Below, in pieces: positions 1-20,269 of a DNA stretch of 64,000 nt. This stretch comes from an uncultured Brevinematales bacterium (GTDB lineage Bacteria; Spirochaetota; Brevinematia; Brevinematales; JAOACQ01), in the NCBI GenBank assembly GCA_964533855.1, contig CAZHNM010000014.1, positions 5,238 through 69,237 on the forward strand. The letters run 5' to 3'. The notes under the pieces are model-generated. The model ran no database searches. It was not told the DNA's origin and saw nothing but the letters and a program-made list of their open reading frames with translations. A program made the position numbers and the translations under genes. Position 1 is the first letter of the stretch, and each line of letters opens with the position of its first letter.

Positions 1-1
1 A

Positions 2-91
2 TGGGCAGTTGCAGCACAGGCTATCTCTAATATGTATATACAGGCTAAGGCAAACAGTAGTCACATTGGGCTGAAGGAATTATACCACTAA
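2..91 (+). CDS. Possible 3' end of a plus-strand gene truncated by the window edge (...WAVAAQAISNMYIQAKANSSHIGLKELYH*)
   Basis: Frame 2 is open from the window edge to TAA at 89-91, convergent with the RHH gene ending at 96; no family recognisable. Confidence 0.35.
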   Translation, partial: WAVAAQAISNMYIQAKANSSHIGLKELYH

Positions 92-95
92 TAAA

Positions 96-320
96 TCAAA
101 TAAGATCATTCTTTTTCATATAATCATAAAGTACTGTCCTGATACCGGACATCATGGATAGTCCTTTATTATTAAAATGTTCCTGCAGTATCTTTTTATA
201 ATTATCAGGCATTGCTATATTAAAAACCTTTTTCTTCTGTTTTTTATATTTTTCTGATTTTTCAAAAGTGTCGGTACTTTGGATGATTCCTGTTTTCAAC
301 TCTTCTTTTTTCAATGGCAT
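96..320 (-). CDS. Small ribbon-helix-helix type partition adaptor (ParG/omega-like centromere-binding protein)
   Basis: 74 aa, basic flexible N-terminus, C-terminal beta-alpha-alpha pattern (VFNIAMPDNYKKILQEHF...SGIRTVLYDYM); directly downstream of ParA. Confidence 0.65.
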   Translation of the reverse strand: MPLKKEELKTGIIQSTDTFEKSEKYKKQKKKVFNIAMPDNYKKILQEHFNNKGLSMMSGIRTVLYDYMKKNDLI

Positions 321-321
321 A

Positions 322-1074
322 TTATATGACTTCCAGGATCACATTTCCTATATCTTTTATTGATGGAATGCTTTTTGAGTCAGGATAGGCCTCAAAAATG
401 CTTTTATTGACCATCTGGCTCTCAGCCAGTTTTGAATCCTGGGGTATAAAAAATAGCCTGTAATTCATTTTCTTAAATTCTTCCATTACTAAATTATGCC
501 TCCTGAAAGAATGATTTACAAGATTTATCACGACCTTATCATGTTTAATTTCCCGCCGAAAATTTTTCCTGATTTTCTTCAATTCATCAGTAAAGATTGT
601 CAGCCCTTCCAGGCCAAAATACTCGGGTGTGAAAGGCGTTATGACTTCCTGCAGGGAAAGTATGATGCTTTTTTCAAGCCGGGACATTCCCGGTGAAAGA
701 TCATAAATAATAAGATCAAAGTTCAGACTGCGGAATTCCTCAAAAAGATCGACAAAAATAAAAGGTTCATCATTCAGTTTTGTTTCCGAATAATTCTTGA
801 GCATTCCGTTTATTCCAAAAGACGGTATAAAATAAAGGTTTTCATTATATTGGACAATAGTATCGGAAACGGAGACTTTACCGGCAAGTATGTCTGCGAG
901 TTCATGCTTTAAACCTTCTAGTTTTGTAAGAAACCAGGAACTTAATGATCCCTGCGGATCTCCGTCTATAAGCAGGGTTTTCCTGCCTGTGCTTGCCGTA
1001 TAATATCCAACTGATCCGGATATGGTTGTTTTACCTACCCCACCTTTCAGGACATGAAAACCAAAAGATTTCAT
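322..1074 (-). CDS. parA: ParA family partition ATPase (type Ib, no N-terminal HTH)
   Basis: Deviant Walker A KGGVGKTT, Walker A' LIDGDPQGSLS, Walker B IIYDLSP; RBS GGAGG upstream. Confidence 0.93.
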   Translation of the reverse strand: MKSFGFHVLKGGVGKTTISGSVGYYTASTGRKTLLIDGDPQGSLSSWFLTKLEGLKHELADILAGKVSVSDTIVQYNENLYFIPSFGINGMLKNYSETKLNDEPFIFVDLFEEFRSLNFDLIIYDLSPGMSRLEKSIILSLQEVITPFTPEYFGLEGLTIFTDELKKIRKNFRREIKHDKVVINLVNHSFRRHNLVMEEFKKMNYRLFFIPQDSKLAESQMVNKSIFEAYPDSKSIPSIKDIGNVILEVI

Positions 1075-1102
1075 AAATATCCTCCCGGAATTGTATTATC
1101 TT

Positions 1103-1188
1103 AATACCATAATAATATTAAAATCATATAATGATTTTATGAAGTTAATATCATTTCAATACTATGATTATATCAAAATAATATCATT
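1103..1188. repeat. AT-rich phased repeat array upstream of parA (candidate parS/operator)
   Basis: AATAYCAT-like units at 1147, 1158, 1169, 1180 (11-bp period); TAATATCATT at 1146 and 1179; inverted repeat TAAAATCAT-ata-ATGATTTTA at 1119-1139. Confidence 0.55.
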
Positions 1189-1265
1189 AAAATTACAAAG
1201 GTTTATAAAGGAAATCCTTTTCAATCTCTGAGATTAAAGATTACCCTTCAGTCACTTATATAGCT

Positions 1266-1934
1266 TTAAGAATATAAATTATTGTCATCTAAATTTTTTA
1301 TAAATTTCTCAAAAGATTCAGGCGGAGGATCATATTTTATTGACTTCTCTTTTTCCCTGCGTTTAAATTCCAGCCTTTTTCCTTCTTCCTCTCTCAATTT
1401 ATTGGTTACTAAATACCCAATGAGTTCTCTATCTTTCAGACATTTTGCCACATAAGCCGGAATGTTTTTGACGTATGAAAGCGTCTCAACATATTTTTTA
1501 ACCAGGTTTCTTATCTGTGCCTGAGAGAGAGATTTAATATTTGTTTTATTACCTGTATTAATATACTGATCATTTTGATCAGGCTGATTCATCTTTTTGA
1601 TTAGAGCCTCTGATCCTTTTGATTTATCTGTCTCATCATTTTGATCAGGGACAATTATAACCCTGATATTGGAACTTAGTTTCCTTATATGTCCGTCAAA
1701 GCTTATCACGGATATTAATTTCAATTTTTTCAGGTGAGATATTGATCGTGTTACAGTTGGGATTGATACACCAAGAAAATTTGCAAAATATTCATTTGAG
1801 GCAAAGCAGCCGTCTTCAAGCTGGCTCAGACTGTCAATTTCAGCTAAAAGCAGCTTTTCATTTGCAGAAAGATCAGAGCATAAATAAATAGCCTTTGGTA
1901 TCCATACGCCTTTAAAATCTCTTTTTTCATTCAT
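1266..1934 (-). CDS. Phage-type replication initiator (replisome organiser) with N-terminal winged HTH
   Basis: N-terminus RDFKGVWIPK..LSANEKLLLAEIDSL..GCFASNEYFANFLGVSIPTVTRSISHL is typical of HTH_36 phage replication proteins; internal DNA repeats in the linker. Confidence 0.8.
   Translation of the reverse strand: MNEKRDFKGVWIPKAIYLCSDLSANEKLLLAEIDSLSQLEDGCFASNEYFANFLGVSIPTVTRSISHLKKLKLISVISFDGHIRKLSSNIRVIIVPDQNDETDKSKGSEALIKKMNQPDQNDQYINTGNKTNIKSLSQAQIRNLVKKYVETLSYVKNIPAYVAKCLKDRELIGYLVTNKLREEEGKRLEFKRREKEKSIKYDPPPESFEKFIKNLDDNNLYS
1569..1649. repeat. Four iterons inside the rep gene (candidate replication origin)
   Basis: ATCATTTTGATCAGG (1569), ATCTTTTTGATTAGA (1591), ATCCTTTTGATTTAT (1613), ATCATTTTGATCAGG (1635): exact 22-bp period. 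Confidence 0.8.
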
Positions 1935-1937
1935 TAA

Positions 1938-2276
1938 TCAGGCCTTCTGTTTAAAAAGGTTATCCCGAATAAAGGGCAGTAATTCCAGAACAACTTTTTC
2001 CTTTTCTTCAGTCGTTAAATTAAGAAAATATTCAACAGTTGCTTTTTCTTTTATTCCCAGGCATTTTTCAATTTTAAAACGCGGTATCGGATAATAAATT
2101 GACTTACGCCCTTCTTTACTGATTTTACCTCCGAATTCCTGCCAGTGGTCATAAAAATAGTCAATTGAGAAGGATGGGAATATTCTGGAAGCTTCTGCCG
2201 GGCGTACGGCATCATTATTTTTCAGATAATCTTCAATTCTTTTCTGCTTCTGTTCTTTGATCTCTTTTGATGTCAT
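1938..2276 (-). CDS. Small hypothetical DNA-binding protein, possibly excisionase/RDF or Cro-like
   Basis: 112 aa, basic, first gene of the leftward operon, RBS GGAGA; weak winged-helix-like segment AVRPAEASRIFP; call is mostly positional. Confidence 0.4.
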   Translation of the reverse strand: MTSKEIKEQKQKRIEDYLKNNDAVRPAEASRIFPSFSIDYFYDHWQEFGGKISKEGRKSIYYPIPRFKIEKCLGIKEKATVEYFLNLTTEEKEKVVLELLPFIRDNLFKQKA

Positions 2277-2285
2277 AAATTCTCC

Positions 2286-2323
2286 AAAAAATAAGCCCGA
2301 TAGCGTGGTAGCGCTGATCGGGC
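2286..2323 (-). terminator. Intrinsic terminator in the leader of the leftward (xis-rep) operon
   Basis: Minus-strand RNA GCCCGAUCAGCG-CUACCA-CGCUAUCGGGC followed by UUAUUUUUU, directly before the RBS of the 112-aa gene. Confidence 0.75.
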
Positions 2324-2505
2324 AACTTACGGTGTAGTTTTGATAGGAATTAATGATAAGAACACATCTACTATTTCTAAAACTACACTTATTGCTCTTG
2401 GGCTACCACCCGGAATATATTGAAATTATATATCTTTTATTTTATACTTTAATAATAAAGTTTGTTATTTTTAAACTCTTTACCAAGCATGTCTTTATTA
2501 GACAT

Positions 2506-2534
2506 ATTATATGTCAATATAGACACATTGTCAA
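2506..2534 (-). promoter_or_regulatory. Perfect sigma70 promoter driving the leftward operon, overlapped by palindromic operator-like sites
   Basis: TTGACA (2534-2529), 17 bp, TATAAT (2511-2506); palindromes ATGTCT-N5-AGACAT (2489-2505) and GACATA-N3-TATGTC (2501-2515). Confidence 0.85.
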
Positions 2535-2579
2535 TACCTACAATCAAGTATTTTGAGTAGTATGTGGAGATTTATTATA

Positions 2580-3263
2580 ATGCAAAATGAAAGATTAAAA
2601 ACAATACGAAATTCTTTAGGTCTGACCCAGAAGGAATTCGCAGGGAAATTAGATTTAAAGGTAGAAACTTATAAAAATTACGAGTTCAGAAATAGAGATA
2701 TACCAGGTATTATATTAGAAAAATTAATTTCTGTTTTTAATATTAATTTAAACTGGCTTGTGTCCGAAAACGGATCCATGTTTGAGAAACCAATTACAAA
2801 AACCCGTTTATTCCAGACATTTGACTTGATTATTAATTTATCTGAAATATTACCATATATTTCAAAGCCTGTAGTAAATATAATTGTTGAAACGGAACCT
2901 TCTTCTGCCTGGAACCTGCCCTGTCTGGTTCTTGAATCATTTGATTCCGGTGAATGGTATTTGTTCGGCCGTAGCAGAATCGCATTTCAAGGGAATGGGG
3001 GCGGTTATAACAACATGGTGAATCTATTAACCATGCTCAAAAAATACAAAATATCAATAGGAAAATGGACTTTATCAAGGCAGATGATTGATGACTTTGA
3101 AGCCGGGTTAATACTATGGTCTGAAATTAAAAAAAATGCCGTTCCAGCACTTTCAGCAATAAACGAACAGGATTCCTGGCAGTCGACAATTAATCAGATG
3201 AAGGAAATGTTTAAAAAAGAATATAACGAATTGAGTGAAGAAGAAATTAAAAAGATGCTCTAA
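2580..3263 (+). CDS. XRE-family HTH repressor with unassigned C-terminal domain
   Basis: ERLKTIRNSLGLTQKEFAGKLDLKVETYKNYE is an HTH_3 pattern; RBS GGAGA before ATG 2580; divergent from the rep operon. Confidence 0.85.
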   Translation: MQNERLKTIRNSLGLTQKEFAGKLDLKVETYKNYEFRNRDIPGIILEKLISVFNINLNWLVSENGSMFEKPITKTRLFQTFDLIINLSEILPYISKPVVNIIVETEPSSAWNLPCLVLESFDSGEWYLFGRSRIAFQGNGGGYNNMVNLLTMLKKYKISIGKWTLSRQMIDDFEAGLILWSEIKKNAVPALSAINEQDSWQSTINQMKEMFKKEYNELSEEEIKKML

Positions 3264-4321
3264 TCAATATCCGGCATCTTCTCCGGTAAGAATCCTGTCG
3301 GCATATTATCTATAAACTGCTTCTTATATTCATCCAGTGGATTAATATACCTGTCAGTCATCTTTATATCTGAATGCCCCATAAGTTTTGAAAGAGCAAA
3401 AGGATCAATTGAAATACCGTTAACTCTGGTTGCTGCAAGAGTAGTTCCGAAAACATGACGGAGATCATGCAGGACAAGGTCTTTAATATTCAGCAATCTG
3501 CATAATATGCTGAATGAATCCGACAGTTCCCGGGCTGTCATTGAAAACAATTTCCCTTCTTTAATGCCATTTGTTTGGATCCATAGAATCAGATCGCTCC
3601 TCAGCCGCGGATGAAGAATAATCGTTACCCTCTTCCCCGTTTTACCCTGGGTCATGGTCTGCCTGTACTGTATAATTTCCTGATCGAATTTCAACTTTTC
3701 AATCGTCAGATCGAGTACATCAGAACGGCGCAGCCCTGTCATGCAAAGCGTTTCGATTATAAGGAATAATTCGGGGTCATGGATAGATTCAAAAATCTGT
3801 CTCAATTCAACAGGGGTCGGTATGCGGTCCCTGTGCATCTCATCGTAAGGCACAGGAATATCCTTCAATTTAACCTTTTTCTCCTTTAACTCGCCCCAGT
3901 CTTCAAGCTTTGAAAAGAATCCGGAGATAGTATTTAATTCACGGTTAATAGTGGTATTTTTCACACTTTTCTGCCTTTCGCGCTTATAAATATCAATATC
4001 GAGAGTTGTATAATCCTCGATCTTCTTATCCCCTACGACTTCAATAAATCTTTTAATATTGTTCTCGTCCTGCCGCCAGCCTTTATTATTTACCTTTGCC
4101 CAGTTCTCAATGTAAAGAGTTATCAGTTCACTGGCCAGTCTTGCGGGTTTCTGCTTTTTAAGATCATAGAATTCACCGATCGAAATTTTAAATTTAATTT
4201 TATCCTCTTCGATATCCGCATCCTTTTTGCGTGTGATTCCATGAAGTTTGATTCTTTTCCGCTTGCCTTCAAGAATAACCGAAGCATAATAAGCCCTGTC
4301 TTTATTATCCCAATAAGCCAT
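3260..4321 (-). CDS. int: Tyrosine recombinase / phage integrase
   Basis: Catalytic motifs TGLRRSD (R), HDLRH (H-x-x-R), LMGHS (H), TDRY (Y); N-terminal arm-binding-like and SAM-like domains; RBS GGAGGA. Confidence 0.95.
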   Translation of the reverse strand: MAYWDNKDRAYYASVILEGKRKRIKLHGITRKKDADIEEDKIKFKISIGEFYDLKKQKPARLASELITLYIENWAKVNNKGWRQDENNIKRFIEVVGDKKIEDYTTLDIDIYKRERQKSVKNTTINRELNTISGFFSKLEDWGELKEKKVKLKDIPVPYDEMHRDRIPTPVELRQIFESIHDPELFLIIETLCMTGLRRSDVLDLTIEKLKFDQEIIQYRQTMTQGKTGKRVTIILHPRLRSDLILWIQTNGIKEGKLFSMTARELSDSFSILCRLLNIKDLVLHDLRHVFGTTLAATRVNGISIDPFALSKLMGHSDIKMTDRYINPLDEYKKQFIDNMPTGFLPEKMPDID

Positions 4322-4333
4322 GGATTCCTCCTC

Positions 4334-4415
4334 TTACTGGCAGATTTACTGGCAGAAAAGTGTCAGTGTCAGTGAAACCTGTAACTCATTATAATTTACT
4401 GGCACCTGACTGGCA
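4334..4415. repeat. Integrase arm-type binding repeats
   Basis: TTACTGGCAGA at 4334 and 4346, TTACTGGCA at 4396, TGACTGGCA at 4407; inverted variants TGTCAGT at 4361 and 4367. Confidence 0.75.
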
Positions 4416-4416
4416 A
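4388..4416 (-). promoter_or_regulatory. Candidate integrase promoter
   Basis: TTGCCA (4416-4411), 17 bp, TATAAT (4393-4388) on the minus strand. Confidence 0.6.
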
Positions 4417-4518
4417 ATTTCACCAAAATAGGCGAAATCAGCCAAACGGAACCCTTTGAAAATCATTGAAATATATAGAATTAATTGGCTGGTCTGGTTG
4501 GATTGGCCCCAGGAATAT

Positions 4519-4603
4519 CGGAGAGAGGGGGATTCGAACCCCCGGTACATTGCTGTACACGCGCCTTCCAAGCGCGCTCCTTAAACCACTCGGACATCTC
4601 TCC
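4519..4603 (-). tRNA. tRNA-Ser (anticodon GGA), CCA not encoded
   Basis: GGAGAGA/TCTCTCC acceptor stem, D-loop GAGTGGTTTAAGG, anticodon arm CGCGC-TTGGAAG-GCGCG, long variable arm, T-loop GGTTCGAATCC, discriminator G. Confidence 0.97.
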
Positions 4604-4616
4604 AGAAGAGCCGGAT

Positions 4617-5899: not shown

Positions 5900-5998
5900 A
5901 TTCTTATTATAATAAATGGGCCCCTTCTTATCAATAATATCTTATTTGCATTTTCCTGTCTTTTTACCTAAAATTATGTCGCCGTTATGGAGGGTTCC

Positions 5999-6892
5999 AT
6001 GAACCTTGATGACAGGGAGATAAAAGCAGCTGTCTCGGATTACCTCGGCGGCGGAGAGAGTTCTTCGCACGGTCTTTCCAACTTCAAAAAACTTACTGAA
6101 ATTTATATATATAACTTCCCTCGCGCCGCATACAGAAAAGACCTGGACACCTGTTCGGGGTTTTATATATACATGGTTGAAAGGCTTGAAAGTGTTATTA
6201 AAAATTTTCCGCTCGGCGAAGATATAAAGTTTAAGACCTGGTTCAACTGTGTGCTGAGAAACCAGTTCTCGCATTTTATGCGTTTTCAGAAAAAAGAGTC
6301 CTTGTACGAATTGAACATCGATGATTATGAAAATAAGACCGCATTCGATGTTTTTGAGACTGAAAGTTTTGATTATTCATTCCTGGAAGACTGCATGAAG
6401 GGACTCGATAATGCTGAAAGGCTGACGTTAAAGTTTTTCTATATGCCCTCAAGCCTGACCCCTGAGGATATTATTTCTTCTTCTGATGCATTCGGACTTA
6501 GCATAAGCGATATCCTATCCGTACAGGCGGGGCTTATTAAAGCCAGGGCGGATGAAAGCAGCAGGGCCAGGCATGCTGTCATGAAGATAAATTATATCAA
6601 TAAAGTGCTGAGGGACTTGAAACACAGGCTGCGCTCTATAAGCCTGGCAGGCAGCCAGCAGGGCCGGGCCCCGGCAGTTCCCCTGATAGACAGGATTGCA
6701 AGGTACGAGGCTGCAAAAGCTAGGCGGATCAGGGAAATGGAATCCCCCGACAGGAGGTTGTTTGCTGTTTTCGCCCCGCTTTTCGATAACGCCGTAAGGG
6801 CGAAAAGATCCCTGAACGGATCGAAGAAAAAGCTCAAAATGATGATCCTGTATAAGATGAATGCCCGGAAAACGGGAAGGGGGCTTTCATGA
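5999..6892 (+). CDS. Divergent sigma70-family (ECF-like) sigma factor
   Basis: Region-2-like FKTWFNCVLRNQF, region-4 start LDNAERLTLKFFY; followed by a ZAS anti-sigma gene; RBS GGAGG before ATG 5999. Confidence 0.65.
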   Translation: MNLDDREIKAAVSDYLGGGESSSHGLSNFKKLTEIYIYNFPRAAYRKDLDTCSGFYIYMVERLESVIKNFPLGEDIKFKTWFNCVLRNQFSHFMRFQKKESLYELNIDDYENKTAFDVFETESFDYSFLEDCMKGLDNAERLTLKFFYMPSSLTPEDIISSSDAFGLSISDILSVQAGLIKARADESSRARHAVMKINYINKVLRDLKHRLRSISLAGSQQGRAPAVPLIDRIARYEAAKARRIREMESPDRRLFAVFAPLFDNAVRAKRSLNGSKKKLKMMILYKMNARKTGRGLS

Positions 6893-7425
6893 CTTTCGGA
6901 TGCGGATATTTCCCTGAAAATGAGATGCTTCGCTACATCGATCTTAATTCAGGCAGGTCTTCTATAATTGAAGAACACCTGCGGAACTGCCCGGCGTGTA
7001 TGAAAGAGATTATAGAATTGAACCGTATTAATGCCAGGCTTGAAGTTTTCAAGCCCGGGACCTTGCCGTCATGGCATGATCTTACTGTTACGATAAGTGA
7101 AGGATCTGTCGAAGGCGCCTGGTCGAGCCGTACGGCTGTTAATCTTGTCCCCTTGGCTTATTCCAGGGGCCCGTCGTCCCCGGGCTGCATGGCGGTTTTT
7201 CCAGAGGGCGTCAGCGTTCAGGCTGATGGCGGGGTGTGCAGGATAACCCTTAAGCGTGCTGGTAATGAAAAACAGGTATCCGAAATAAGGAGAAAGGGCT
7301 CTTCCCTTCCCCTGTTTTCAGAAAAGTCCGGCAGGGAAGAGGTTGTATTCAGGGGCATCGGGCCCGGTGATTACCGGATAATATCAGGGAAATCCGTCAT
7401 AAATATTTCGATAAGAAAAGCTTGA
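6889..7425 (+). CDS. zf-HC2 (ZAS) anti-sigma factor with soluble C-terminal beta-rich domain
   Basis: EEHLRNCPAC (HxxxCxxC); start overlaps the sigma stop (ATGA); no TM helix. Confidence 0.7.
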   Translation: MTFGCGYFPENEMLRYIDLNSGRSSIIEEHLRNCPACMKEIIELNRINARLEVFKPGTLPSWHDLTVTISEGSVEGAWSSRTAVNLVPLAYSRGPSSPGCMAVFPEGVSVQADGGVCRITLKRAGNEKQVSEIRRKGSSLPLFSEKSGREEVVFRGIGPGDYRIISGKSVINISIRKA

Positions 7426-14527: not shown

Positions 14528-16186
14528 ATGAGAACAAGCGGAGCCCAGATCATTATCGAAATGCTCGAAAAGCTCGGGGTGGAATTCATTGCGGGAATTC
14601 CGGGGGGATTCAACCTCCCCCTCTATGATGCCCTTTACAGGAGCCCCATCAGGCATATTCTCGCCAGGCATGAACAGGCGGCAGGATTTATAGCGCAGGG
14701 TCTGGCCAGGTCCACAGGGAAAACGGGTGTATGTTTTGCGACATCGGGGCCGGGCGTAACAAACCTGCTGACAGCGCTTGCCGATGCAAAAATGGATTCA
14801 ATCCCGATAGTTGCCATCACCGGCCAGGTGCCCCTGAATTTCATAGGTACAGACGCTTTCCAGGAGGTTGATACTTATGGAATCACGTTTTCTATTACCA
14901 AACATAATTTCTTAGTCAGGTCTGCGGATGACCTGCCTGAAATAATTTCCGCGGCTTTCAGGATCGCCTCTTCCGGAAGGCCCGGGCCGGTGCTTGTCGA
15001 CATTCCCAAGGATATTCAGACCGGTTACGCGGAATGGAACGGAAAACTCTTTAGAGGACACAGGGAGAGCCCCCCGGCTTCCGATAAGGAAGCGCTTGAA
15101 AAAGCCGCCTCCATGATAAACAACGCGCGAAAGCCTCTTCTCCTTGCCGGCGGAGGGATAGTTCACTCCGGAGCGGATGCGGCTTTAAAGGAGCTTGCTC
15201 ATAAAAGCTCTATCCCCGTAGTATCCACCCTTATGGGATTGGGAGCCTTTCCGAGTTCCGATCCGCTATTCAAGGGTTTGATAGGAATGCATGGCTCAAA
15301 AAGCTCGAATCATATCAGCGAGCTTGCCGACCTTGTAATCGCCTGCGGTACAAGGTTCTGCGACAGGACTACGGGCAGGGCCAGCAGCTTCTGCAGCAAC
15401 GCCGGTATTATTCATATCGACATCGATAATTCAGAGTTCGGCAAAAACAGGCAAGCGGACCTAACAGTTAACTCTGATATAAAAGATTTTCTATCGGGAC
15501 TTTTACCGTTAATCGCCATATCTGAGAGGGCTTTATGGATAGAAGAGACAAAAACTGTCCTTTTAAAGCATCCGCCCGATATGCCCCCGGCAGACAACCC
15601 TCTCCACCCCGGAAACATTATCATGAAAACCGGATCGATCGTTCCGGAAGATGCTATCATAACGACCGACGTAGGGCAGCACCAGATGTGGGTTGCCAAA
15701 TGGTACAATTTCAGAAGACCCCGCACTCTTCTTACTTCGGGCGGACTCGGGACAATGGGTTTCGGACTGCCCGCGGCTATAGGGGCGGCTCTTGCCAATC
15801 CCGGCAAAAAAGTTGTCTGTTTTACCGGGGATGGTTCGATCATGATGAACATCCAGGAACTGGCAACTCTGTCGGAATATGGCCTTGATATTACTATCAT
15901 AGTCATGAATAACGGAAACCTGGGGCTGGTCAGGCAGCAGCAGGACCTTTTTTACGGCAAGCGCTTCATAGCCTCTAAATTTCTGAAAAACACCGATTTC
16001 AGGGCTGTCGGTGAGGCTTTCGGGATAAAATCTTTCAACCTTGCCAATGAAACAGATCCTGAGAAGATTCTATATAAAGCCATTTCGGAACCGGGTCCAT
16101 GCCTTGTCAATGTTCCTGTGCCTGAAACGGCATTTGCCCTGCCTATGGTAAAGCCCGGGGCGGCGAATCTGGAAATGATCGGCTGA
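14528..16186 (+). CDS. ilvB: Acetolactate synthase large subunit (biosynthetic type)
   Basis: RHEQAAG, ATSGPGVTN, TTDVGQHQMW, SGGLGTMGFGLPAAIGA, ThDP motif GDGS...NN. Confidence 0.96.
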   Translation: MRTSGAQIIIEMLEKLGVEFIAGIPGGFNLPLYDALYRSPIRHILARHEQAAGFIAQGLARSTGKTGVCFATSGPGVTNLLTALADAKMDSIPIVAITGQVPLNFIGTDAFQEVDTYGITFSITKHNFLVRSADDLPEIISAAFRIASSGRPGPVLVDIPKDIQTGYAEWNGKLFRGHRESPPASDKEALEKAASMINNARKPLLLAGGGIVHSGADAALKELAHKSSIPVVSTLMGLGAFPSSDPLFKGLIGMHGSKSSNHISELADLVIACGTRFCDRTTGRASSFCSNAGIIHIDIDNSEFGKNRQADLTVNSDIKDFLSGLLPLIAISERALWIEETKTVLLKHPPDMPPADNPLHPGNIIMKTGSIVPEDAIITTDVGQHQMWVAKWYNFRRPRTLLTSGGLGTMGFGLPAAIGAALANPGKKVVCFTGDGSIMMNIQELATLSEYGLDITIIVMNNGNLGLVRQQQDLFYGKRFIASKFLKNTDFRAVGEAFGIKSFNLANETDPEKILYKAISEPGPCLVNVPVPETAFALPMVKPGAANLEMIG

Positions 16187-19000: not shown

Positions 19001-20269
19001 GTGAGCATTTCTAAAAAGACCGTAAAGGATATCGATTTAACCGGCAAACGTATTATTATGAGAGTGGACTTTAATGTCCCTATGAAAGACGGAGTGGTCC
19101 AGGACGATACCCGCATCAAAGCGGCCATGCCTACGATAAATTATATTTTAGCGCATAAAGCTAAAAGCCTTGTCCTGATGTCGCATCTGGGCGACCCTAA
19201 AAAAGATATGGAAAAGGCCAGGGAAAAGACCGTAAAAGACGGTAAAGTTTTCGATGAAAAAAAATACCTTGCAGGCAAGCATATGCTTAAACCCGTCTGC
19301 GATCATTTCGCCAAACTGCTGGGAAAAGAAGTTAAATTCGCACCCGACGCTCTCGGGGCTGATACAAAAAAGCTCGTTGATTCCCTCAAGGACGGAGAGG
19401 TCCTGATGCTTGAAAATACGCGCTTTCATAAGGAAGAAACATCAAAGGACGCCGCGGACAGGGAAAAGATGGCCAAAGAATTAGCCTCCTACGGCGACAT
19501 TTTTGTTAACGATGCCTTCGGAACTGCACACAGGGCGCATGCCTCCACTGAAACAATCGCGCACTTCCTTCCCGCGGTCGCAGGTTTCCTGATGGAAAAA
19601 GAGCTCGAGTATCTTGACGAAAAGGTTGTCAAGAACCCTGCAAAACCTTTCGTTGCGATAATCGGCGGAGCTAAAGTATCATCGAAAATAAGCGTGCTGG
19701 AAAGCCTGCTGGAAAAAGTAGACAAGCTCATCGTGGGCGGCGGAATGGCTTATACATTCTTAAAAGCGAAAGGCCTGAGCGTCGGAACATCCCTGATAGA
19801 AGACGATATGATAGAAAAGGCCCGCAATATCCTCCAGAAGGCATACGAAACGCATGTCTATATATACCTGCCCATAGACCATATAGTCACTCATGAATTC
19901 TCGGCCGATGCGCCTTTTAAGCATGTCGCAAGGGGCAATATCGACGAAGGCGAGATGGGAATGGATATTGGACCGCTGACAATTGAAAAATTCCAGGGAG
20001 CCCTGAAAGGCGCAAAAACAGTCTTCTGGAACGGCCCGCTCGGTGTTTTCGAATTTCCTAAATTCTCGAAAGGCACCATGGCTATTGCTGAAACACTTGC
20101 AAACCTGCCGGACTGCATTACCGTAATAGGCGGCGGAGATTCCGTATCAGCCGTCAACAAGGCCGGTGTAGCCGATAAAATGTCTCATATTTCGACAGGC
20201 GGCGGCGCTTCTCTTGAACTTGTTGAGGGAAAGGTTCTCCCCGGTGTCGCAGCCCTGATGGATAAATAG
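19001..20269 (+). CDS. pgk: Phosphoglycerate kinase
   Basis: MRVDFNVP, SHLG, LENTRF, NDAFGTAHRAHAS, GGGDS, HISTGGGASLE; GTG start after GGAGG. Confidence 0.98.
   Translation: MSISKKTVKDIDLTGKRIIMRVDFNVPMKDGVVQDDTRIKAAMPTINYILAHKAKSLVLMSHLGDPKKDMEKAREKTVKDGKVFDEKKYLAGKHMLKPVCDHFAKLLGKEVKFAPDALGADTKKLVDSLKDGEVLMLENTRFHKEETSKDAADREKMAKELASYGDIFVNDAFGTAHRAHASTETIAHFLPAVAGFLMEKELEYLDEKVVKNPAKPFVAIIGGAKVSSKISVLESLLEKVDKLIVGGGMAYTFLKAKGLSVGTSLIEDDMIEKARNILQKAYETHVYIYLPIDHIVTHEFSADAPFKHVARGNIDEGEMGMDIGPLTIEKFQGALKGAKTVFWNGPLGVFEFPKFSKGTMAIAETLANLPDCITVIGGGDSVSAVNKAGVADKMSHISTGGGASLELVEGKVLPGVAALMDK

What the first reader, a model, noticed from the sequence alone, without database searches (positions are those of the whole stretch)
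1..4603. tRNA-Ser-integrated element that also carries a plasmid-type partition system and a lambda-O-like replicon
Seen: int, XRE repressor, divergent operon (small DNA-binding gene, rep with internal iterons), then ParA + RHH where lambdoid phages usually have a helicase loader (DnaC/P). Established: type Ib ParA plus a small RHH protein segregate extrachromosomal low-copy replicons. Inference: the element can persist both integrated and as a stably partitioned episome, in a spirochaete lineage where such elements are poorly described. No structural or conjugation genes are visible here, so prophage vs satellite vs ICE is unresolved.
Basis: partly seen in the sequence, partly recalled or inferred. 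Interest (0 to 1): 0.75.

Follow-up and report, generated by a model that had tools for sequence, protein, structure and literature searches.

The report
Integrated plasmid-like element at tRNA-Ser
The first 4.6 kb of the window is the integrase end of a mobile element, at least 9.8 kb long, inserted at a tRNA-Ser gene; it carries a complete-looking plasmid-type replication origin and partition system, a combination already known from other integrating elements, and no free circular form could be shown.

Summary
tRNA-Ser(GGA), a tyrosine integrase, an XRE repressor, a divergent operon (orf112, Rep), then ParA and a small ribbon-helix-helix (RHH) protein are all intact. They lie in a low-GC stretch (32-39% against about 45%).

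New findings:
- The rep gene holds four iterons (ATCAAAANGAT) exactly 22 bp apart. They are read in three reading frames, so the repeat is a DNA signal, not a peptide repeat.
- The RHH protein has ParG-like architecture.
- ParA plus RHH is a conserved cassette found almost only in Spirochaetota. It sits on circular 6-11 kb plasmids, Brachyspira and Borreliella plasmids, a phage-like contig, and two tRNA-Leu islands beside an integrase.
- A sister element shares XRE, orf112, the Rep C-domain and ParA (90%), and adds a TrwC relaxase.
- The integrase and attL region are 83% (protein) and 77% (DNA) identical to those of a 32-kb tailed prophage at the same tRNA.
- A public contig extends the element 5.3 kb: membrane proteins, an EcoRII-like restriction-modification system, and an interrupted glycosylase.

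Not found: a second att copy, an attP junction, an empty site, or excess coverage.

Best reading: a mosaic integrative plasmid-like element. Episomal life is inferred, not shown. Leptospira LaiGI, LE1 and the lcp plasmids, and ICEs with partition systems, are clear precedents. It is a new member of a known kind, of moderate-to-low interest.

The parts
4518..4604 (-). tRNA-Ser(GGA). Its 3' end (4518) faces the integrase and is the presumed integration target (attL core).
   Evidence: ARAGORN; Rfam tRNA, 53 bits. The related prophage L215 starts inside the same tRNA 3' half.
4334..4415 (-). Four (T)TACTGGCA repeats in two tandem pairs (4334-4356 and 4396-4415), lying between int and the tRNA. 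They are putative integrase arm-type sites and overlap a promoter-like site for int (4416-4388).
   Evidence: TRF finds a 12-bp period at 100%. ACTGGCA occurs 7 times in 19.6 kb of L005 against 1.7 in shuffles, with four of the seven clustered here. The promoter scan scores 11/12. Function is inferred.
3260..4321 (-). Tyrosine integrase, 353 aa.
   Evidence: Pfam Phage_integrase and Int_N; PHROG integrase 2.4e-49. It is 83% identical to the integrase of the tailed prophage IMGVR_UViG_2829072343_000001 at tRNA-Ser.
2553..3263 (+). XRE-family repressor candidate. The more likely start is the ATG at 2580. It has an HTH_3 N-domain and an uncharacterised C-domain of about 150 aa with no peptidase S24 match.
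   Evidence: Pfam HTH_3 2.6e-9; PHROG transcriptional regulators and repressors. It is 59% identical to the XRE of sister element L100.
2501..2534 (-). A perfect sigma-70-like promoter for the orf112-rep operon (-35 at 2534-2529, -10 at 2511-2506). It is overlapped by two palindromes, GACATATTATATGTC (2501-2515) and GACACATTGTC (2522-2532), which are putative XRE operators.
   Evidence: The promoter scan scores 12/12. The palindromes were read from the sequence. Operator function is inferred.
2277..2500 (-). A structured 5' leader of the orf112-rep operon. It ends in a GC-rich hairpin (2295-2323) followed by a U-tract just before the orf112 ribosome-binding site.
   Evidence: RNA fold gives -50 kcal/mol, z = -3.2. 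The hairpin block is the best-conserved part of the intergenic region when compared with L100. One metatranscriptome contig covers 2061-2323.
1938..2276 (-). orf112, the first gene of the divergent operon. Function is unknown; a Cro-like regulator or an excision factor are both possible.
   Evidence: No family match. The AlphaFold model is low-confidence and all-helical. The C-terminal 61 aa are 72% identical to L100.
1266..1934 (-). Replication initiator Rep, 222 aa. It has a winged-helix HTH_36 N-domain, a linker, and a C-domain (aa 125-206) shared with the Rep of sister element L100.
   Evidence: Pfam and PHROG matches. Relatives sit in phage replication modules and in Leptospira LE1 and lcp-type plasmids next to parAB. 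The C-domain is 40% identical to the L100 Rep (8e-15).
1566..1649 (-). The putative origin: four 18-bp iterons (1566-1583, 1588-1605, 1610-1627, 1632-1649; core ATCAAAANGAT) at a 22-bp period, located in the Rep linker codons 96-123.
   Evidence: The 22-bp period places the copies in three reading frames. The related Rep gene in L009 has CTAATCAAAATGAT twice in mid-gene, and the L100 Rep has different mid-gene palindromes.
1522..1565 (-). An A+T-rich stretch immediately 3' of the iterons on the coding strand; a candidate DNA-unwinding region.
   Evidence: Sequence read. It is not the most AT-rich 40-mer of the gene. Its role is inferred.
1094..1184 (.). An AT-rich array of ATGAT/ATCAT-type direct and inverted repeats upstream of parA. 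It is a putative centromere and/or operator for the RHH protein.
   Evidence: Repeat families D1 and I6 (D1). The central block is conserved with L100, and the whole cassette including this region is 79% identical over 1.09 kb. Binding has not been tested.
322..1074 (-). Small Walker-type (type Ib-like) ParA ATPase, 250 aa.
   Evidence: Pfam AAA_31 and CbiA; PHROG ParA. It is 90% identical to L100, 64% to the circular plasmid L095, 46% to Brachyspira pBHWA1, and 42-43% to Borreliella plasmids (lp17 among the named ones).
96..320 (-). ParG-like partner protein, 74 aa: a disordered N-terminal tail of about 32 aa followed by a C-terminal ribbon-helix-helix.
   Evidence: PHROG Arc-like 3.7e-5. A PDB profile search hits the small protein 2KEL (deposited as 'Uncharacterized protein 56B') at 0.006. 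In the AlphaFold model the C-terminal part has pLDDT 85-88. Foldseek hits are almost all RHH proteins (Arc TM 0.78, ParG at rank 8), though all E-values are 1 or higher. A homologous partner follows ParA in most related loci.

Best explanation
Window 1-4604 is the integrase-proximal end of a mosaic mobile element. The element is at least 9.8 kb long and is integrated at the 3' end of tRNA-Ser(GGA) in an uncultured peat/wetland bacterium, probably a member of Spirochaetota.

It joins two kinds of module:
- A phage-type integration module: a tyrosine integrase with a cluster of arm-type repeats.
- A plasmid-type maintenance backbone: an XRE repressor facing a consensus promoter with palindromic operators, a structured leader, orf112, an initiator Rep whose own gene contains four iterons at a 22-bp period plus an AT-rich stretch (a lambda-ori-like layout), and a type Ib-like ParA with a ParG-like RHH partner and an upstream repeat array.

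The cargo seen so far is two membrane proteins, a 208-aa protein of unknown function and an EcoRII-like restriction-modification system with a mismatch glycosylase.

Proposed working:
- Shown: the genes, the repeats, the integrated state, and the plasmid location of the par cassette's relatives.
- Inferred: XRE keeps the leftward operon off while the element is integrated.
- Inferred: after derepression and Int-mediated excision, Rep fires the origin inside rep. The RHH protein then binds the repeats upstream of parA, and ParA segregates the low-copy circle until it is lost or reintegrates.
For: - Gene content and integrity. The sequence is 99.96-100% identical in seven contigs from independent assemblies.
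- Low GC.
- Iterons at an exact 22-bp period, in three reading frames, against 0.49 matches expected in the whole window. Analogous mid-gene repeats occur in related Rep genes, and they change when the N-domain changes.
- RHH fold with a ParG-like disordered tail.
- ParA-RHH cassette on circular contigs (L095, L159, L186, L212), next to Rep3, and on Brachyspira, Borreliella and Entomospira plasmids.
- Sister element L100 shares XRE, orf112, the Rep C-domain and ParA-RHH, and adds a TrwC relaxase.
- A second int-tRNA-linked cassette (L107/L149).
- Integrase and attL module shared with a tailed prophage.
- Literature: HTH Rep proteins encoded next to parAB in Leptospira plasmids (our Rep N-domain matches LE1 Orf5 and lcp-type Rep regions) alone support plasmid replication, and the island LaiGI excises and its rep region replicates (PMC4338851; PMC4140679).
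Against: - No second att copy lies within the 9.8 kb available, and the far end is unknown because the only extending contig stops in a transposon-like sequence.
- No joints, attP or attB contigs were found. Every contig carrying the exact chromosomal neighbour and reaching past the tRNA also carries int (L092, L003, L093; L094 stops before the tRNA).
- Element contig depth is 4.6-8.3 against 5.4-10 for the flank, so it is not multicopy. Only assembled contigs were available, no raw reads.
- No recognisable excisionase is present.
- No helicase or helicase loader is encoded.
- The centromere and operator assignments are untested.
Confidence: 0.5

Rival explanations
1. It is the early (lysogeny and replication) end of a temperate tailed prophage. 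In this reading the phage both integrates and carries a partition system (phage-plasmid-like), and its late genes lie beyond the end of the available sequence.
For: - Most Rep N-domain relatives are in phage replication modules and viral contigs.
- The order attL-int-repressor-divergent operon-initiator is lambdoid.
- The closest integrase (83%) belongs to a 32-kb prophage with a tape measure gene and capsid-, portal- and terminase-sized ORFs. That prophage also encodes a distant ParA (27%) and a primase.
- A 55%-identical ParA-RHH cassette sits in a phage-like contig with a tape measure gene, pRha and an S24 repressor.
- LE1 is a Leptospira phage that replicates as a plasmid and has parA plus a related Rep (PMC4338851).
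Against: - The 5.3 kb beyond the par genes holds no phage genes, only membrane proteins, one protein of unknown function and a restriction-modification system.
- The nearest whole-backbone relative, L100, carries a TrwC relaxase and no phage genes across 11 kb.
- ParA has no close relatives in IMG/VR.
Confidence: 0.2
2. It is a fixed, no longer mobile remnant of a plasmid that once integrated. The rep and par genes are carried passively or have been co-opted, for example as regulators.
For: - Only the integrated form is seen in every assembly. Depth does not exceed the chromosome's and no empty site was found.
- The cargo glycosylase is interrupted by a transposon-like insertion.
- No excisionase is recognised.
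- ParA-RHH cassettes also sit inside large, apparently chromosomal defence islands with no integrase within 10 kb (L106, L108).
Against: - All six backbone ORFs, the catalytic motifs, the four iterons, the consensus promoter and the operators are intact.
- GC is still far from that of the host.
- Assemblies break repeatedly inside the element. Two independent assemblies stop at the same place, L005 position about 15.66-15.68 kb, which suggests population variation.
Confidence: 0.2
3. It is a phage satellite (PICI-like) or an integrative mobilizable element. In this reading it excises and replicates only when a helper phage or a conjugative element is present.
For: - The layout int, master repressor, divergent operon with initiator and origin resembles a PICI.
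- The XRE protein has an uncharacterised C-domain of about 150 aa with no S24 peptidase match, so a sensor role is conceivable.
- It shares its integrase and att site with a resident-type prophage.
- The sister element has a relaxase.
Against: - No packaging-redirection genes, terS, capsid-morphogenesis genes, relaxase or oriT are recognisable in 9.8 kb.
- Rep is a small winged-helix protein, not a primase-helicase.
- An active partition system is not a described feature of satellites (my own knowledge).
Confidence: 0.08

Closest known systems
Leptospira LE1 phage-plasmid, L. interrogans lcp/pGui plasmids, and the excising island LaiGI (rep LA1839)
   Same: The host phylum is probably the same. 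Rep is an HTH-type initiator with N-domain similarity: 50% to LE1 Orf5 over aa 9-86 and 33-34% to the L. interrogans plasmid Rep proteins. Rep is encoded next to a ParA-type partition locus. LaiGI is both integrated and able to excise, and its rep region replicates autonomously (PMC4140679). Rep alone supports shuttle-vector replication (PMC4338851).
   Different: The Leptospira ParA is only about 25-26% identical to ours, and its partner is a ParB- or DUF3102-type protein rather than a small RHH. Gene order there is parAB-rep, whereas here it is rep-parA-RHH. Those replicons are 54-75 kb and partly phage-like. No integrase next to a tRNA, and no iterons inside rep, were shown for them here.
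Type Ib partition systems with an RHH centromere-binding protein (ParF-ParG-parH of TP228; delta-omega of pSM19035)
   Same: A small Walker ParA without an HTH. The partner is 74 aa, with a disordered N-tail and a C-terminal RHH like ParG. A repeat array lies upstream of parA.
   Different: There is no significant sequence similarity to ParG; ParG ranks 8th by fold with E about 3.7. The centromere has not been identified experimentally. The cassette here lies in an integrated element.
Lambda O / ori-lambda type replicons
   Same: The origin lies inside the initiator gene, in the linker between the DNA-binding and C-terminal domains. It has four roughly 18-bp iterons with internal dyad symmetry, followed by an AT-rich stretch. 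PHROG 'O-like' families match weakly.
   Different: There is no Pfam Phage_rep_O match; the N-domain is HTH_36. No P-type or DnaC-type helicase loader is present; ParA-RHH follow instead.
ICEs and genomic islands with their own replication and partition (SXT/R391 srpMRC; pKLC102/PAPI-1 soj; SGI1)
   Same: The concept is the same: a site-specifically integrated element that also encodes replication and active partition for its excised circle (PMC4489591, PMC10954446, PMC7826253). The pKLC102/PAPI-1 example comes from my own knowledge.
   Different: Those elements are large, conjugative or mobilizable, and proteobacterial. They replicate by relaxase-driven rolling circle or IncC-dependent mechanisms, and their partition systems are type II or ParAB. 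No transfer genes are seen here.
Sister element L100/L102 (MAG 'uncultured Spirochaetota bacterium MFD03726.bin.1.50', contig_115431)
   Same: XRE is 59% identical, orf112 72% (C-terminal part), the Rep C-domain 40%, ParA 90% and RHH 76%. There are 70-79% nucleotide identity blocks that include the leader hairpin and the repeats upstream of parA.
   Different: Its Rep N-domain is different and has its own mid-gene palindromes. It has a TrwC relaxase and a 169-aa gene between rep and parA. It carries a different recombinase and hsdM fragments, and there is no tRNA on the contig.

Membership tests
Type Ib (ParF/ParG-like) plasmid partition system | A small deviant-Walker-A ParA ATPase lacking an N-terminal HTH domain. 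| tested here: met
   250 aa; AAA_31 2e-26 and CbiA; KGGVGKTT at residues 10-17; no HTH domain hit.
Type Ib (ParF/ParG-like) plasmid partition system | A small ribbon-helix-helix centromere-binding protein encoded immediately downstream of parA. | tested here: met
   A 74-aa ORF starts 1 bp after the parA stop codon. Supporting results: PHROG Arc-like 3.7e-5; in the AlphaFold model the well-predicted C-terminal part (pLDDT 85-88) is an extended segment followed by two helices; Foldseek hits are almost all RHH proteins. Foldseek E-values are 1 or higher because the domain is tiny. Synteny is conserved in related loci.
Type Ib (ParF/ParG-like) plasmid partition system | A cis-acting centromere made of repeats bound by the RHH protein. 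| tested here: inconclusive
   A repeat array at 1094-1184 is conserved with L100. A TGTACA cluster also lies downstream, outside the window. Binding cannot be tested with these tools.
Type Ib (ParF/ParG-like) plasmid partition system | The system acts on an extrachromosomal low-copy replicon. | tested here: inconclusive
   Relatives are on circular contigs and known plasmids. This copy is seen only in the integrated state, at about 1x depth or less.
Lambda O family initiator / ori-lambda | Sequence membership in Phage_rep_O. | tested here: not met
   There is no Pfam Phage_rep_O hit; HTH_36 matches instead. Only weak PHROG 'O-like' hits were found, at 1.2e-8 and 1.9e-5.
Lambda O family initiator / ori-lambda | Iterons within the initiator coding sequence, followed by an AT-rich region. 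| tested here: met
   Four iterons at a 22-bp period in codons 96-123, with an AT-rich stretch next to them.
Lambda O family initiator / ori-lambda | An adjacent helicase-loader gene (P- or DnaC-like). | tested here: not met
   The next genes are parA and the RHH gene. No helicase or loader is present in the 9.8 kb.
tRNA-targeting tyrosine-integrase integrative element | A tyrosine recombinase with intact catalytic residues adjacent to the 3' end of a tRNA gene. | tested here: met
   An 83%-identical integrase sits at the same tRNA in the L215 prophage.
tRNA-targeting tyrosine-integrase integrative element | A direct repeat of the tRNA 3' end (second att site) at the far end of the element. 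| tested here: inconclusive
   There is none in L005 9000-19602, in the window, or in any fetched locus. The far end of the element is not in any available contig.
tRNA-targeting tyrosine-integrase integrative element | An excised circular form and/or an empty site in the population. | tested here: inconclusive
   No joints, attP or attB were seen in assembled contigs of five DNA runs (X1-X5), and there were no empty-site contigs. Raw reads were not available.
Phage-plasmid / temperate prophage | Virion structural and packaging genes within the element. | tested here: inconclusive
   None are present in the 9.8 kb seen. The remainder of the element is unknown.
PICI-type phage satellite | A primase-helicase Rep and packaging-hijack genes (terS, cpm, ppi) downstream of the int-repressor switch. 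| tested here: not met
   Rep is a 222-aa winged-helix protein. No such genes are present in 9.8 kb.
ICE / IME | A relaxase with oriT, with or without a type IV secretion system. | tested here: not met
   None in the 9.8 kb. A TrwC relaxase is present only in sister element L100.

The most novel reading that the evidence does not exclude
A family of small modular 'integrative plasmids' exists in environmental Spirochaetota. Its backbone is an XRE switch, orf112, a Rep with the origin inside its gene, and ParA with a ParG-like RHH. Family members swap their integration module (phage-derived integrase at tRNA-Ser or tRNA-Leu), transfer module (TrwC) and defence cargo (type I or type II restriction-modification). 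They genuinely alternate between a tRNA-integrated state and an actively partitioned low-copy episome. The compact rep-ori-par unit of about 2 kb would be a ready-made shuttle replicon for poorly tractable spirochaetes.
Probability: 0.3. Interest if true: 0.55.

Novelty: new member of a known kind. Interest (0 to 1): 0.35.

Why it matters
If the element really alternates between an integrated state and a partitioned episome, it adds a compact example of about 10 kb from an uncultured spirochaete lineage to the growing evidence that plasmids, prophages and genomic islands form a continuum. It also shows how defence cargo (restriction-modification systems) travels on such mosaics.

In practice, the roughly 2-kb rep-ori-par unit with clearly defined iterons is a candidate replicon for genetic tools in spirochaetes. 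The related HTH Rep genes of Leptospira plasmids have already been used this way (PMC4338851).

It does not open a new mechanistic question. Replication and partition of integrative elements are established for LaiGI, SXT/R391, SGI1 and pKLC102/PAPI-1.

Tried and rejected
1. Finding the far end or attR
- Direct-repeat search of L005 9000-19602 found nothing.
- The tRNA 3'-end pattern was searched in the window and in all 214 loci, with no second copy.
- A homologue search with the last cargo gene found the exact protein only on the same JGI contig. Intact relatives are at most 70-72% identical and come from unrelated phyla.
- The transposon-like contig end has no copy in the window.

2. Empty site or circular form
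- Every contig carrying the exact chromosomal 167-aa neighbour and reaching past the tRNA also carries int.
- Logan contigs of five DNA runs show no joints. The loose ends at 4548/4549 are other organisms' tRNA-Ser(GCU) genes. The contigs ending at 4518/4519 could not be retrieved.

3. Scans for relatives
- The integrase scan of JGI metagenome contigs found no relative.
- The XRE and ParA scans of IMG/VR found none.

4. Host taxonomy
- Cluster look-ups return no names for window proteins.
- NCBIfam hits on chromosomal genes are uninformative.

5. orf112 as a DNA-binding protein
- It has no family hit and the AlphaFold model is poor, so no fold search was run.

6. Other
- Rfam finds only the tRNA.
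- The idea that the rep repeats merely reflect a peptide repeat (PDQND...PDQND) was rejected, because the two middle copies are read in other frames.

Full report
**Observation**

ORF listing, ARAGORN and family scans give, from right to left:
- tRNA-Ser(GGA) at 4518-4604(-), with its 3' end facing the element.
- A 353-aa tyrosine integrase at 3260-4321(-). Its catalytic motifs (TGLRRSD, HDLRH, GHS...DRY) can be read in the translation.
- A convergent XRE-family protein at 2553-3263(+).
- A leftward operon of orf112 (1938-2276) and a 222-aa Rep (1266-1934). Rep matches HTH_36 and PHROG replication-initiation families, including 'O-like' and 'DnaD-like' ones.
- After a 191-bp AT-rich spacer, a 250-aa ParA (322-1074), followed 1 bp later by a 74-aa protein (96-320) that matches a PHROG 'Arc-like repressor' family.

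GC is 0.32-0.39 over 1-4000, against roughly 0.40-0.51 in most of the remaining 60 kb.

One detail is not confirmed: that orf112 binds DNA. It has no family match, and its single-sequence AlphaFold model is poor.

**The origin**

Two near-identical palindromic 18-mers proved to be the outer members of four copies with the core ATCAAAANGAT. They lie at 1569, 1591, 1613 and 1635, exactly 22 bp apart. The whole 64-kb window has five matches where 0.49 are expected.

Because 22 is not a multiple of three, the four copies are translated in three different frames: PDQNDE, KSKGS, LIKKM, PDQNDQ. The repetition is therefore a property of the DNA, not of the protein.

The copies occupy codons 96-123, between the N-terminal winged-helix domain and the C-terminal domain. 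An A+T-rich stretch follows them. This is the ori-lambda layout.

Two comparisons support function:
- The nearest full-length Rep relative (L009, 41-44% identical) has CTAATCAAAATGAT twice, 21 bp apart, at the same place in its gene.
- The sister element L100 has a Rep that shares only the C-domain (40%, 8e-15) and has a different N-domain (PHROG replication initiation, 3e-34). That gene carries different mid-gene palindromes, TTTCCGAAAT.

**The partition cassette**

ParA is a small Walker-type ATPase without an HTH.

Its partner has a confidently predicted C-terminal strand-helix-helix (pLDDT 85-88) behind a disordered tail of about 32 residues. That is the architecture of ParG. Foldseek returns almost only RHH proteins (Arc with target TM 0.78, FitA, PutA, ParG, CopG, AmrZ). 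The E-values are not significant for so small a domain. A profile search of PDB sequences finds the small protein 2KEL (deposited as 'Uncharacterized protein 56B') at 0.006.

A homologous small partner directly follows ParA in most related loci.

The spacer upstream of parA holds ATGAT/ATCAT-type direct and inverted repeats. It travels with the cassette: ours and L100 are 79% identical over 1.09 kb starting about 110 bp upstream of parA, and the central repeat block is conserved. I read this as the centromere and/or operator, but that is an inference.

**Where the cassette's relatives live**

In PLSDB the best ParA matches are the Brachyspira hyodysenteriae 32-36 kb plasmids (46%) and Borreliella plasmids (42-43%; lp17 among the named ones). 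Phage records give only distant hits.

In the large protein collection the named relatives are Spirochaetes, Brevinematales and Sphaerochaeta, and most sit on short contigs. Individual contexts:
- 64% identity: a Logan contig with a 30-nt terminal overlap, that is a 7.08-kb circle. It also encodes a tyrosine recombinase, an HTH_17 protein and a Prim-Pol.
- 57% identity: next to a Rep3 gene in Spirochaetes bacterium GWF1_51_8.
- 55% identity: in a phage-like contig with a tape measure gene, pRha and an S24 repressor.

A profile scan of GTDB genomes found 33 loci, of which 28 are titled as spirochaetes. The same scan of JGI metagenomes returned 80 loci. They were mostly short contigs; three were circular, and Rep3 lay beside the cassette in seven.

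Two loci (L107, a Spirochaeta sp. MAG, and L149) have ParA-RHH directly beside an integrase and tRNA-Leu(CAA); L107 also carries type I hsdM genes next to the cassette. So the cassette is a plasmid partition module that recurrently ends up in integrase-bearing, tRNA-linked islands.

It also occurs inside large defence islands where no integrase lies within 10 kb (L106, L108).

**Relatives of the other modules**

- Rep N-domain relatives are mostly phage initiators; in L010 DnaB follows directly, and in L013 DnaB and a primase follow after one intervening gene. They also include Leptospira LE1 Orf5 (50% over aa 9-86) and the Rep of L. interrogans plasmids, encoded next to parAB.
- A ParA 90% identical to ours led to contig L100/L102, from a MAG titled 'uncultured Spirochaetota bacterium'. 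This contig shares XRE (59%), orf112 (72% over the C-terminal part), the Rep C-domain, ParA and RHH (76%). It has a TrwC relaxase and a 169-aa gene between rep and parA, plus a different recombinase. The backbone is therefore plasmid-like and modular.
- The integrase has its closest relative (83%, with 77% nucleotide identity across the tRNA 3' half, arm region and int) at the edge of a 32-kb IMG/VR provirus. That provirus has a tape measure gene, capsid-, portal- and terminase-sized ORFs, a primase, methyltransferases and a distant ParA. The integration module is therefore phage-derived.

**Extent and state of the element**

A JGI contig identical to the window (0 mismatches in 4700 nt) runs 5.3 kb further left. 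It adds:
- a 208-aa protein of unknown function;
- two membrane proteins;
- a C5 methyltransferase (1.5e-91);
- an EcoRII-C endonuclease (6e-67);
- an HhH-GPD glycosylase, cut at about residue 172 by GC-rich, transposon-like sequence at which the contig ends. Intact homologues are 200-263 aa (mostly 206-230).

No copy of the tRNA 3' end occurs in these 9.8 kb or anywhere else I could reach.

Seven other contigs, from at least five independent assemblies, are 99.96-100% identical. They break at different points inside the element, and two of them stop at the same place, L005 position about 15.66-15.68 kb.

Every contig carrying the exact chromosomal neighbour and reaching past the tRNA also carries int. 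Logan contigs of peat and wetland runs show no joints. They give element depths of 4.6-8.3 against 5.4-10 for the flank. So there is no evidence of an episome, an excision product or an empty site. The data are assembled contigs, not reads, and cannot exclude rare forms.

**Regulation (inferred)**

A perfect TTGACA-17-TATAAT promoter points into the orf112-rep operon. Two GACA...TGTC palindromes overlap its -10 and -35 elements, next to the XRE start.

The 224-nt leader folds with z = -3.2. It ends in a GC-rich hairpin plus U-tract just before the orf112 ribosome-binding site. That hairpin is the best-conserved block of the intergenic region between our element and L100.

One wetland metatranscriptome contig covers 2061-2323 at very low depth.

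Between int and the tRNA, four TTACTGGCA repeats in two pairs overlap a promoter-like site for int.

**Interpretation**

The best-supported reading, at about 0.5, is a mosaic integrative plasmid-like element. It joins a plasmid backbone (switch, Rep with internal origin, type Ib-like partition) to a phage-derived integrase and att module. It carries defence cargo and is at present seen only in the integrated state.

Rivals:
- The early end of a prophage whose late genes lie beyond the contig end (about 0.2).
- An immobile remnant (about 0.2).
- A helper-dependent satellite or IME (about 0.08).

**Comparison with what is known**

Functionally it resembles LaiGI of L. interrogans, an island that excises and whose rep region replicates. 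The Leptospira papers report the LaiGI Rep (LA1839) as similar to the LE1 and lcp Rep proteins, and our Rep N-domain matches the LE1 and lcp-type proteins directly (PMC4140679, PMC4338851). It also resembles ICEs and islands with their own replication and partition (SXT/R391, SGI1).

It is not a member of the lambda O family by sequence, although its origin is built the same way. It meets the protein-level criteria of a type Ib ParA/RHH system.

It is therefore a new member of a known kind.

Noticed in passing
L005 14355-14537 (34-216 bp to the left of window position 1, outside the window): Six TGTACA motifs lie within 183 bp, between the RHH gene and the next gene (208 aa). Only one other copy occurs in 10 kb. 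This could be a second centromere or operator site, or the regulatory region of the cargo genes.
   Followed up: partly
L005 about 19500-19602 (the end of the JGI contig): The HhH-GPD glycosylase gene is cut at about residue 172 by GC-rich foreign sequence. That sequence starts TGTG... and contains AGTGACCCA twice, so it looks like the end of a DDE transposon. The contig stops there, and no copy occurs in the window.
   Followed up: partly
window 2277-2500 (minus strand): The orf112-rep operon has a structured leader (z = -3.2) with a terminator-like hairpin at 2295-2323 plus a U-tract just upstream of the ribosome-binding site. The hairpin is conserved in sister element L100. This may be attenuation-type control of rep. 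An RNA contig ends exactly at 2323.
   Followed up: partly
L095 (Logan SRR21713525 contig, 7109 bp): A 30-nt terminal overlap indicates a 7.08-kb circle. It encodes a tyrosine recombinase, an HTH_17 protein, a Prim-Pol, ParA (64% identical) and an RHH protein (41% identical). It is a candidate free form of a small integrative plasmid.
   Followed up: partly
L107 1-6230 and L149: In a Spirochaeta sp. MAG with 59% GC, two type I hsdM genes, ParA (50% identical), an RHH gene, an integrase and tRNA-Leu(CAA) lie in a row. This is a second int- and tRNA-linked copy of the cassette, carrying restriction-modification cargo, with no rep gene between par and int.
   Followed up: partly
L215-L217 (IMGVR_UViG_2829072343_000001, 32 kb): A tailed prophage sits at the same tRNA-Ser with an 83%-identical integrase. 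It also encodes a distant ParA (27% identical), a 1059-aa primase and two methyltransferases, so it is an integrating phage with a partition-type ATPase.
   Followed up: partly
L106 and L108 (contigs of 112 kb and 227 kb): ParA-RHH cassettes are embedded among genes that by eye look like defence genes (very large helicase-, methylase- and ATPase-like ORFs in L106; an AAA ATPase with a protease-like ORF in L108; paired 205-aa/316-aa and 299-aa/323-aa ORFs resembling AbiE-type toxin-antitoxin genes). None of these was run against a family library. No integrase was detected within 10 kb.
   Followed up: no
L005 about 15662-15679 (inside orf181): An ENA megahit contig and a Logan contig from different samples both end here. 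The JGI contig continues into the restriction-modification genes. This suggests that the cargo beyond this point varies between strains.
   Followed up: no
window 4382 and 4511-4519 (loose ends): Some metagenome contigs match the window from 4382 rightwards but diverge to the left into sequence that again contains CCAGTAA-type motifs. Other contigs, of similar depth, end at the tRNA 3' end with unrelated upstream sequence. These may be variant elements, an attR or an attB, and could not be retrieved.
   Followed up: partly
window 5987-7425: Two overlapping ORFs (301 aa and 178 aa, the latter with a CPAC...motif near its N-terminus) have no Pfam hit on record. They lie between the chemoreceptor-like gene and MTHFR. 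A sigma/anti-sigma pair is possible.
   Followed up: no
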